Source: Escherichia coli (lineage in GTDB: Bacteria > Pseudomonadota > Gammaproteobacteria > Enterobacterales > Enterobacteriaceae). Taken from it: 64,000 nt of DNA. Under the pieces are notes generated by a model. That model worked only from the letters and a program-made list of their open reading frames with translations, searched no databases and was not told the origin of the DNA. The stretch lies in NCBI RefSeq assembly GCF_002854065.1, contig NZ_CP024147.1; one strand, written 5' to 3'. The translations under genes were made by a program, and so were the position numbers. Of the stretch, positions 60,987-61,033 are shown in pieces. How positions within the stretch are numbered: position 1 is the first letter of the stretch; each line of letters opens with the position of its first letter.

Positions 60987-61033
60987 ATGCGACAACGTGC
61001 CGGGTAAAAGCCTTCTCCCCGGCGCGCCCTCTT

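What the first reader, a model, noticed from the sequence alone, without database searches (positions are those of the whole stretch)
60987..61033. yfaD (rpnE) directly abuts yfaY: the K-12 ypaA/rhmA-T-D-R (yfaU-X) block appears absent
As I recall K-12, ypaA and the L-rhamnonate utilisation genes rhmA, rhmT, rhmD and rhmR lie between yfaD and yfaY. Here the yfaD stop and the yfaY stop are only 47 bp apart. The flanking gene, yfaD, encodes an Rpn-family PDDEXK nuclease, which makes a recombination-associated indel at this position plausible, though that link is speculative.
Basis: partly seen in the sequence, partly recalled or inferred. Interest (0 to 1): 0.4.

Follow-up and report, generated by a model that had tools for sequence, protein, structure and literature searches.

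The report
Old rare rhamnonate-operon deletion haplotype
This E. coli strain really does lack the four L-rhamnonate utilisation genes that K-12 carries between yfaD (rpnE) and yfaY, but this is an ordinary, old and rare deletion variant of a locus that has lost these genes many times, with no evidence that the neighbouring Rpn nuclease caused it.

Summary
rpnE/yfaD (60033-60986, +) and yfaY (61034-62245, -) converge with a 47-bp spacer. K-12 has ypaA, rhmA, rhmT, rhmD and rhmR between them. Homology to rhm+ alleles stops at about 60964-60968 and resumes at about 61046-61062, so the last codons of both genes are new. ypaA is not missing: a ypaA-type module (rpnESs) is fused in frame to rpnE, giving a 317-aa protein. 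This kind of fusion is already published. The junction occurs in only 9 of 5,426 complete E. coli genomes, but in hundreds of draft or metagenome assemblies, on flanks that differ by up to 1.8%. The same junction (88/97 bases identical) is the native arrangement in a divergent Escherichia lineage that is about 90.5% identical overall, so the haplotype is old. The rhm block has been lost independently several times. Another deletion with an rhmA remnant accounts for nearly all of the about 23% of E. coli genomes that lack rhmT-rhmD, and further losses occur in cryptic Escherichia clades, Citrobacter and Salmonella diarizonae. The endpoints differ between events, and K-12 RpnE is inactive in published recombination assays, so the Rpn link is unsupported. 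The only apparent "progenitor" genome (O157:H7 TR01) looks like a reference-filled chimera. Interest is low.

The parts
60033..60986 (+). rpnE (yfaD), 317 aa. The N-terminal PF04754 (YhgA-like PD-(D/E)XK) domain is fused in frame to an rpnESs/ypaA-type C-terminal module.
   Evidence: ORF list. Pfam PF04754, E = 5e-88. Bases up to 60819 are 98.5-99.5% identical to K-12 rpnE. The 3' module is identical to the separate 74-aa rpnESs gene of metagenome contig L104.
60762..60986 (+). Internal RpnES reading frame (74 aa, [11 protein letters not shown]...APLSLQ), preceded by the Shine-Dalgarno sequence AAGGAG at 60750-60755. It corresponds to the intragenic antitoxin of the published Rpn model.
   Evidence: Sequence and translation. 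The identical stand-alone protein is P0001. The RpnS concept and ypaA = rpnESs come from PMC10400941. Translation in this strain is inferred, not shown.
60816..60839 (+). A 24-bp (8-aa, GKIEGWQE) repeat unit in the RpnS helix. It is present in the 317-aa alleles and absent from the 309-aa alleles of the same haplotype.
   Evidence: Comparison of 13 carrier loci. Repeat-number variation of RpnS is described in PMC10400941.
60965..61061 (.). Junction segment specific to this haplotype. It has no BLAST-detectable counterpart in rhm+ alleles. It supplies the last 5 codons and stop of rpnE, the 47-bp spacer, and the stop plus last codons of yfaY. On codon-level comparison the truly novel core is about 60969-61045.
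   Evidence: BLAST breakpoints against K-12, F247 and E4385. No source was found in the deleted block, elsewhere in E. coli, or in plasmids, phages or JGI metagenomes. The segment is nearly invariant among E. coli carriers and 88/97 identical in the divergent lineage.
60987..61033 (.). The 47-bp spacer between the two convergent stop codons. These are the coordinates given in the finding.
60996..61026 (.). GC-rich hairpin with a 9-bp stem (CGTGCCGGG / CCCGGCGCG) and a 13-nt loop. It may be a vestige or replacement of the yfaY terminator hairpin (K-12: GTGCCGG-TGCAGTAAA-CCGGCAC). There is no T-run.
   Evidence: RNA folding gives z = -3.5 on the + strand and -2.6 on the - strand. The simple terminator scan found nothing. 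The shared GTGCCGG motif is visible.
61034..62245 (-). yfaY (CinA-like protein), 403 aa. The C-terminal tail is LMLSPQGA in place of the K-12 tail MTLSV.
   Evidence: ORF list. Pfam PF00994. From 61062 onward it is 98.5% identical to K-12. C-terminal tails were compared across 80 species.

Best explanation
The window carries an old, low-frequency structural haplotype of the glpC-yfaY interval.

- **Starting arrangement (inferred).** An ancestral Escherichia arrangement was glpC, rpnE, rpnESs (ypaA), rhmA, rhmT, rhmD, rhmR, yfaY.
- **Deletion (inferred from the sequence comparison).** A single illegitimate deletion of about 4.4 kb removed everything from the last codons of rpnESs to the last codon or two of yfaY. 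It left about 80-97 bp of junction sequence. That sequence provides new stop codons for both convergent genes and a GC-rich hairpin.
- **Fusion.** Later, recombination between the two tandem RpnS modules removed one 217-bp unit. This fused the rpnE N-terminal nuclease domain in frame to the rpnESs module. The fusion product and its unfused counterpart are both observed; that the unfused form came first is inferred.
- **Spread (pattern shown, process inferred).** Because no crossover can occur inside the non-homologous junction, flanking homologous recombination has moved the junction onto diverse E. coli backgrounds. The edges of the junction have stayed sharp.
- **Consequence (inferred from gene content).** The strain cannot use L-rhamnonate through RhmT, RhmD and RhmA. 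No role of the Rpn nuclease in making the deletion is needed or indicated.
For: - **K-12 and breakpoints.** K-12 gene order is. The breakpoints lie at 60819/60964 and 61062.
- **Ancestral state.** The rhm block sits in the same place and orientation in E. albertii, an E. marmotae-labelled genome, Citrobacter, Klebsiella and Raoultella. The rhm+ state is therefore ancestral and absence is derived.
- **Single event.** All 18 E. coli carrier loci examined share the same 97-bp junction, with 0-1 change each.
- **Age.** The same architecture (rpnE 317 aa, 47 bp, yfaY 403 aa) is native in a divergent Escherichia lineage. There the junction is 88/97 identical while the surrounding 10 kb is 90.5% identical.
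- **Spread.** Carrier flanks differ by up to 1.8%. No residual foreign tract lies next to the junction.
- **Fusion.** Contig L104 has rpnE (299 aa) plus a separate rpnESs identical to the window's RpnE C-terminus, abutting the same yfaY. Such fusions are described in PMC10400941.
- **Frequencies.** The junction occurs in 9/5,426 complete genomes. rhmT-rhmD DNA is present in 4,171/5,426 genomes, never on plasmids and with at most two places per genome.
Against: - No genuine rhm+ progenitor carrying the same rpnESs and yfaY ends was found. The only candidate (TR01) appears to be chimeric.
- The origin of the junction sequence is unknown, so the exact breakpoints and the mechanism (microhomology, filler, or later divergence of the 3' ends) cannot be fixed.
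- Junction diversity within E. coli is lower than flank diversity. This could mean a younger arrival in E. coli by introgression rather than continuous descent.
- The age estimate rests on only 97 bp.
Confidence: 0.6

Rival explanations
1. Introgression. The deletion arose in another Escherichia lineage (lineage X or an unsampled relative). It entered E. coli by homologous recombination through rpnE and yfaY, deleting rhm in one step. Later recombination trimmed the foreign flanks down to the junction.
For: The junction is native in every contig read of a divergent Escherichia lineage (10 larger contigs with the same gene arrangement plus one short contig). The junction is nearly invariant among E. 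coli carriers whose flanks differ by up to 1.8%. This fits a younger allele that has spread laterally.
Against: The E. coli and lineage-X junctions differ at 9/97 positions, as much as the genomes do, so X itself is not a recent donor. No sites of the pattern 'window = X, not E. coli' lie within 1 kb of the junction. No other donor was found.
Confidence: 0.25
2. Rpn-mediated event. RpnE, or another Rpn nuclease acting in trans, cut near its own 3' end and RecA-independent repair produced the rhm deletion.
For: The left end of the rearrangement lies in the last codons of the rpnESs module. Rpn proteins A-D promote RecA-independent recombination (PMC5350276). Zhong et al. speculate that RpnL proteins may initiate rearrangements around rpn genes (PMC10400941).
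Against: K-12 RpnE was inactive in recombination, toxicity and SOS assays. Other independent rhm deletions start inside rhmA, 150-460 bp from the rpn module, and end at different places. One historical event cannot be attributed to an enzyme from sequence alone.
Confidence: 0.07
3. The rhm-less arrangement is primitive, and the rhm block was inserted into it to give the K-12 type.
For: Many Enterobacteriaceae have glpC directly abutting yfaY, and some have rpnE abutting yfaY. TR01 looks superficially like an rhm block sitting inside a window-type junction.
Against: TR01's block is 100.000% identical to Sakai exactly between the junction endpoints, while its flanks differ by about 0.8%, which points to an assembly artefact. 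rhm occupies the same position in E. albertii, Citrobacter, Klebsiella and Raoultella. The C-terminal tails of YfaY (ESLTLS-type) and RpnES (-NNH/-KNH type) in outgroups match the rhm+ form, so the window form is derived. The Citrobacter and Salmonella rpnE|yfaY junctions are not homologous to this one.
Confidence: 0.05

Closest known systems
E. coli K-12 rpnE-ypaA-rhmA-rhmT-rhmD-rhmR-yfaY locus (b2244-b2249)
   Same: The flanking genes, their orientation and their sequence are the same: 98-99.5% identity up to 60819 and from 61062.
   Different: About 4.5 kb is missing here. The ypaA-type module is fused to rpnE. The C-terminal tails of RpnE and YfaY differ.
Common E. coli rhm deletion ('type B', e.g. 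isolate F247 and O103:H2 CEC12044)
   Same: It also lacks rhmT, rhmD and rhmR, and it also has a single RpnS module on rpnE.
   Different: It is an independent event. It keeps a 462-bp 3' remnant of rhmA and the K-12-type yfaY end and terminator. Its endpoints are K-12 locus L001 5054|8918. It accounts for nearly all of the 1,247 genomes (about 23%) that match the window's rpnE-yfaY stretch over at least 80%, against 0.17% for the window type.
RpnL/RpnS intragenic toxin-antitoxin genes and rpnSs copies (Zhong et al., PNAS 2023, PMC10400941)
   Same: rpnE has an internal Shine-Dalgarno sequence and ATG, a C-terminal module with variable repeat number, and a downstream duplicate (ypaA = rpnESs) that can be lost by fusion with the rpn N-terminal domain.
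   Different: Nothing was tested functionally here. K-12 RpnE showed no toxicity or recombination activity when overexpressed (PMC5350276).
rpnE|yfaY adjacency in the Citrobacter freundii complex and Salmonella enterica subsp. diarizonae
   Same: The gene order glpC-rpnE-yfaY is the same, with a spacer of about 50-85 bp and no rhm genes.
   Different: The junction sequences are not homologous to the window's, and the YfaY tail is ESLTI/ESLTA. These are therefore independent events or histories.

Membership tests
Rpn (YhgA-like, PF04754) recombination-promoting nuclease / RpnL-RpnS system | N-terminal Transposase_31 (PD-(D/E)XK) domain | tested here: met
   Pfam PF04754 matches residues 8-209, E = 5e-88.
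Rpn (YhgA-like, PF04754) recombination-promoting nuclease / RpnL-RpnS system | C-terminal RpnS module with its own ribosome-binding site and start codon, and variable short repeats | tested here: met
   AAGGAG lies at 60750-60755 and an in-frame ATG at 60762. The 74-aa product is identical to stand-alone PF27070 proteins. A 24-bp repeat unit varies among carriers. Translation was not tested.
Rpn (YhgA-like, PF04754) recombination-promoting nuclease / RpnL-RpnS system | Nuclease or recombination-promoting activity of the long form | not testable with these tools
   The literature reports that K-12 RpnE is inactive in recombination, toxicity and SOS assays (PMC5350276).
L-rhamnonate utilisation cluster (rhmA/T/D/R) | Presence of rhmD, rhmA, rhmT and rhmR homologues | tested here: not met
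   tblastn of the K-12 Rhm proteins against the whole window gives no hit apart from weak MFS similarity to glpT. The genome outside the window was not available. rhmT-rhmD DNA is absent from 1,255/5,426 complete genomes and never lies on plasmids.
Mobile-element-mediated excision or insertion (IS, transposon, integrase) | Terminal inverted repeats, target-site duplication, or a recombinase gene at the junction | tested here: not met
   The junction contains only one hairpin. There is no similarity to plasmids, phages or other E. coli DNA. No direct repeats are evident at the breakpoints in the alignments. No dedicated repeat search was run.

The most novel reading that the evidence does not exclude
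The rhm-less junction may be a presence/absence polymorphism older than the split between E. coli and a divergent Escherichia lineage, because junction divergence (9/97) matches genome divergence (9.5%). On this reading it has been kept at low frequency in E. coli, or repeatedly exchanged, at a locus that loses rhm recurrently next to an rpn defence-type gene. That would hint at long-term balancing or fluctuating selection on rhamnonate use, or at a deletion-prone neighbourhood created by the rpn module.
Probability: 0.3. Interest if true: 0.35.

Novelty: already known. Interest (0 to 1): 0.15.

Why it matters
It matters little beyond bookkeeping.
- The strain is predicted to be unable to use L-rhamnonate.
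- Its RpnE carries an rpnESs-type antitoxin module, which is relevant to anyone studying Rpn specificity.
- The glpC-yfaY interval is shown to be a recurrent gene-loss site across Enterobacteriaceae.
- The work also flags a public "complete" genome (TR01) whose sequence at this locus should not be used as evidence of an intermediate.

Tried and rejected
- **Citrobacter or Salmonella as the source of the junction.** The alignment shows no homology in the spacer.
- **O157:H7 TR01 as the rhm+ progenitor.** I rejected it because its 5.7-kb block has 0 differences from Sakai exactly between the junction endpoints, while the flanks differ by about 0.8% and resemble the window.
- **Origin of the 97-bp junction.** I found nothing in the deleted K-12 or Sakai block or in the window, nothing in 5,426 E. 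coli genomes outside this locus, nothing meaningful in plasmids or phages, and no exact match in JGI metagenome contigs with two patterns.
- **Species representatives.** The genome-contig scan with YfaY found no representative with this junction.
- **Residual introgressed tract.** I found none next to the junction.
- **Identity of lineage X.** It is at least 9% diverged from every Escherichia comparator held, including an E. marmotae-labelled genome, so it remains unnamed.
- **Terminator.** The terminator scan of the spacer was negative.
- **Literature.** A search for this polymorphism found no paper.

Full report
**Observation**

- The window encodes glpA, glpB and glpC (to 59840).
- rpnE/yfaD is at 60033-60986 (+ strand, 317 aa).
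- yfaY is at 61034-62245 (- strand, 403 aa).
- yfaZ and nudI follow.
- In a K-12 record the order is glpC, rpnE (299 aa), the ypaA fragment, yfaU/rhmA, yfaV/rhmT, rhmD, yfaX/rhmR, yfaY (400 aa).
- No Rhm homologue is present anywhere in the window.

**Breakpoints**

- Against K-12, the window is collinear at 97-98.5% identity. There are three gaps: the ato operon, a 1.9-kb segment that K-12 lacks, and the rhm block.
- rpnE is 98.5-99.5% identical to K-12 up to 60819.
- From 60820 to about 60964 it matches a ypaA-type module instead. It is 77% identical to K-12 ypaA and 94% identical to the separate 73-aa rpnESs gene of Escherichia sp. E4385.
- Homology to every rhm+ allele then stops and resumes at 61062, which is 19 bp inside K-12 yfaY.
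- Codon-level comparison moves the true edges to about 60969 and 61045. RpnE ends [10 protein letters not shown] instead of EADLA-ANNH. YfaY ends ESLMLS-PQGA instead of ESMTLS-V.
- The intervening sequence has no detectable source. I found none in the deleted block, elsewhere in E. coli, in plasmids, in phages or in JGI metagenomes.
- It contains a stable hairpin at 60996-61026 (z = -3.5) but no canonical terminator.
- Its GTGCCGG arm resembles the K-12 yfaY terminator hairpin, so part of the junction may be a diverged remnant of that terminator.

**ypaA is fused, not lost**

- A metagenome contig (L104) carries the same junction but has rpnE (299 aa) followed by a separate 74-aa gene. That gene is identical to the last 74 residues of the window's RpnE.
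- The window equals L104 minus one 217-bp tandem unit.
- Zhong et al. (PMC10400941) showed several relevant points:
  - rpn genes encode a long toxic nuclease and an internally translated antitoxin, RpnS.
  - ypaA is a second copy of RpnES (rpnESs).
  - Such copies can be lost by fusion with the rpn N-terminal region.
  - The number of short repeats in RpnS varies between strains.
- The window shows all of these sequence features: a Shine-Dalgarno sequence at 60750-60755, an in-frame ATG at 60762, and a 24-bp repeat unit at 60816-60839 that is absent from the 309-aa alleles of the same haplotype.

**Frequency and spread**

- Among 5,426 complete E. coli genomes, 9 have this junction.
- rhmT-rhmD DNA is present in 4,171 genomes and absent from 1,255. 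It is never on plasmids, and no genome has more than two places.
- Nearly all rhm-less genomes carry a different deletion. It retains a 462-bp rhmA remnant and the K-12-type yfaY end.
- In the larger assembly collection, the two 403-aa YfaY variants of the window haplotype are indexed in 581 and 651 blocks. All contigs read showed rpnE (289, 309 or 317 aa) abutting yfaY, apart from TR01.
- Carrier flanks differ from the window by up to 1.8%, as much as the window differs from K-12. The 97-bp junction is identical in 15 of 18 carrier loci and differs by one change in the other three.

**The apparent progenitor is an artefact**

- O157:H7 strain TR01 has the window's RpnE protein and a 403-aa YfaY, with an rhm block (rhmT::IS1203) between them.
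- Its 5.7 kb between the two junction endpoints has zero differences from O157:H7 Sakai. Its flanks differ from Sakai by about 0.8% and resemble the window. The 27 junction bases 60997-61023 are missing.
- This is the pattern expected when a reference sequence is used to fill an alignment gap. I therefore do not use TR01 as evidence.

**Age and polarity**

- A divergent Escherichia lineage (loci L103 and L110; NCBI labels its YfaY 'MULTISPECIES: Escherichia') has the same architecture: rpnE 317 aa, a 47-bp spacer, yfaY 403 aa.
- Its junction is 88/97 identical to the window's, while the surrounding 10 kb is 90.5% identical.
- This lineage is at least 9% diverged from E. albertii, E. whittamii, E4385, E1V33 and an E. 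marmotae-labelled genome at this locus.
- The junction is therefore old. Either it predates the split of the two lineages, or it moved between lineages long ago.
- No foreign tract remains beside it in the window.
- Absence of rhm is the derived state. The block occupies the same position in E. albertii, an E. marmotae-labelled genome, Citrobacter, Klebsiella and Raoultella. The YfaY and RpnES tails of outgroups match the rhm+ form.

**Recurrent loss**

Independent deletions with different endpoints occur in the following (coordinates are in K-12 locus L001):

| Lineage | Endpoints or state |
|---|---|
| Common E. coli type | 5054\|8918 |
| E4385, E1V33, E. whittamii | about 4793\|8615 |
| MOD1-EC7003 | multi-step deletion |
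| E. fergusonii-labelled genome | rhmR remnant retained |
| Several Citrobacter species and S. diarizonae | non-homologous junctions |
| O157:H7 | rhmT inactivated by IS1203 |

Many other genera have glpC directly abutting yfaY. The interval is a variable slot, and the rhm pathway is evidently often dispensable.

**The Rpn link**

- Only the window-type deletion ends at the rpn module. The others begin inside rhmA.
- K-12 RpnE did not raise recombination, toxicity or SOS signals when overexpressed, unlike RpnA to RpnD (PMC5350276).
- Zhong et al. speculate that RpnL proteins might initiate rearrangements around rpn genes, so the idea cannot be excluded. Nothing here supports it.

**Verdict**

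- The proposed cause is unsupported.
- The event is an ordinary, old, rare haplotype at a locus of recurrent gene loss.
- I found no paper describing this polymorphism. The allele is nonetheless present and annotated in many public genomes, and both component processes (accessory operon loss and rpn-rpnSs fusion) are known.

Noticed in passing
L086 (NZ_CP033605.1, E. coli O157:H7 TR01) 7067-12776, corresponding to window 60996/61024: The rhm block including IS1203 is 100.000% identical to O157:H7 Sakai exactly between the window-type junction endpoints. The flanks differ from Sakai by about 0.8% and resemble the window. This looks like a reference-filled or chimeric 'complete' assembly.
   Followed up: partly
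window 28380-28578: The atoSCDAEB operon, about 7.4 kb in K-12 between rcsC and yfaP, is absent. About 200 bp of unrelated sequence lies in its place.
   Followed up: partly
window 50783-53016: An intact MFS transporter (416 aa, - strand) and a LysR-family regulator (292 aa, + strand) lie between inaA and glpQ. K-12 has only pseudogene remnants here, so about 1.9 kb is missing from K-12.
   Followed up: partly
window 13019-13355: Tandem repeats of about 113 bp lie in the eco-mqo intergenic region. The copy number differs from K-12 (multiple staggered BLAST matches).
   Followed up: no
L006-L085 (glpC-yfaY interval in 80 Enterobacteriaceae species): The interval exists in four states: empty, rhm only, rpnE only, and rpnE plus rhm. 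The states are mixed even within Citrobacter. In several genera an rpn gene sits instead on the other side, between nudI and yfaZ.
   Followed up: partly
L104 4089-5225; L101 6089-7222: Many small stand-alone PF27070 (HTH_Rpn_C) genes, that is rpnESs/ypaA copies, exist in Escherichia. They have variable repeat number and variable C-terminal tails (-NNH, -KNH, -PLSLQ, -PLSLK).
   Followed up: partly
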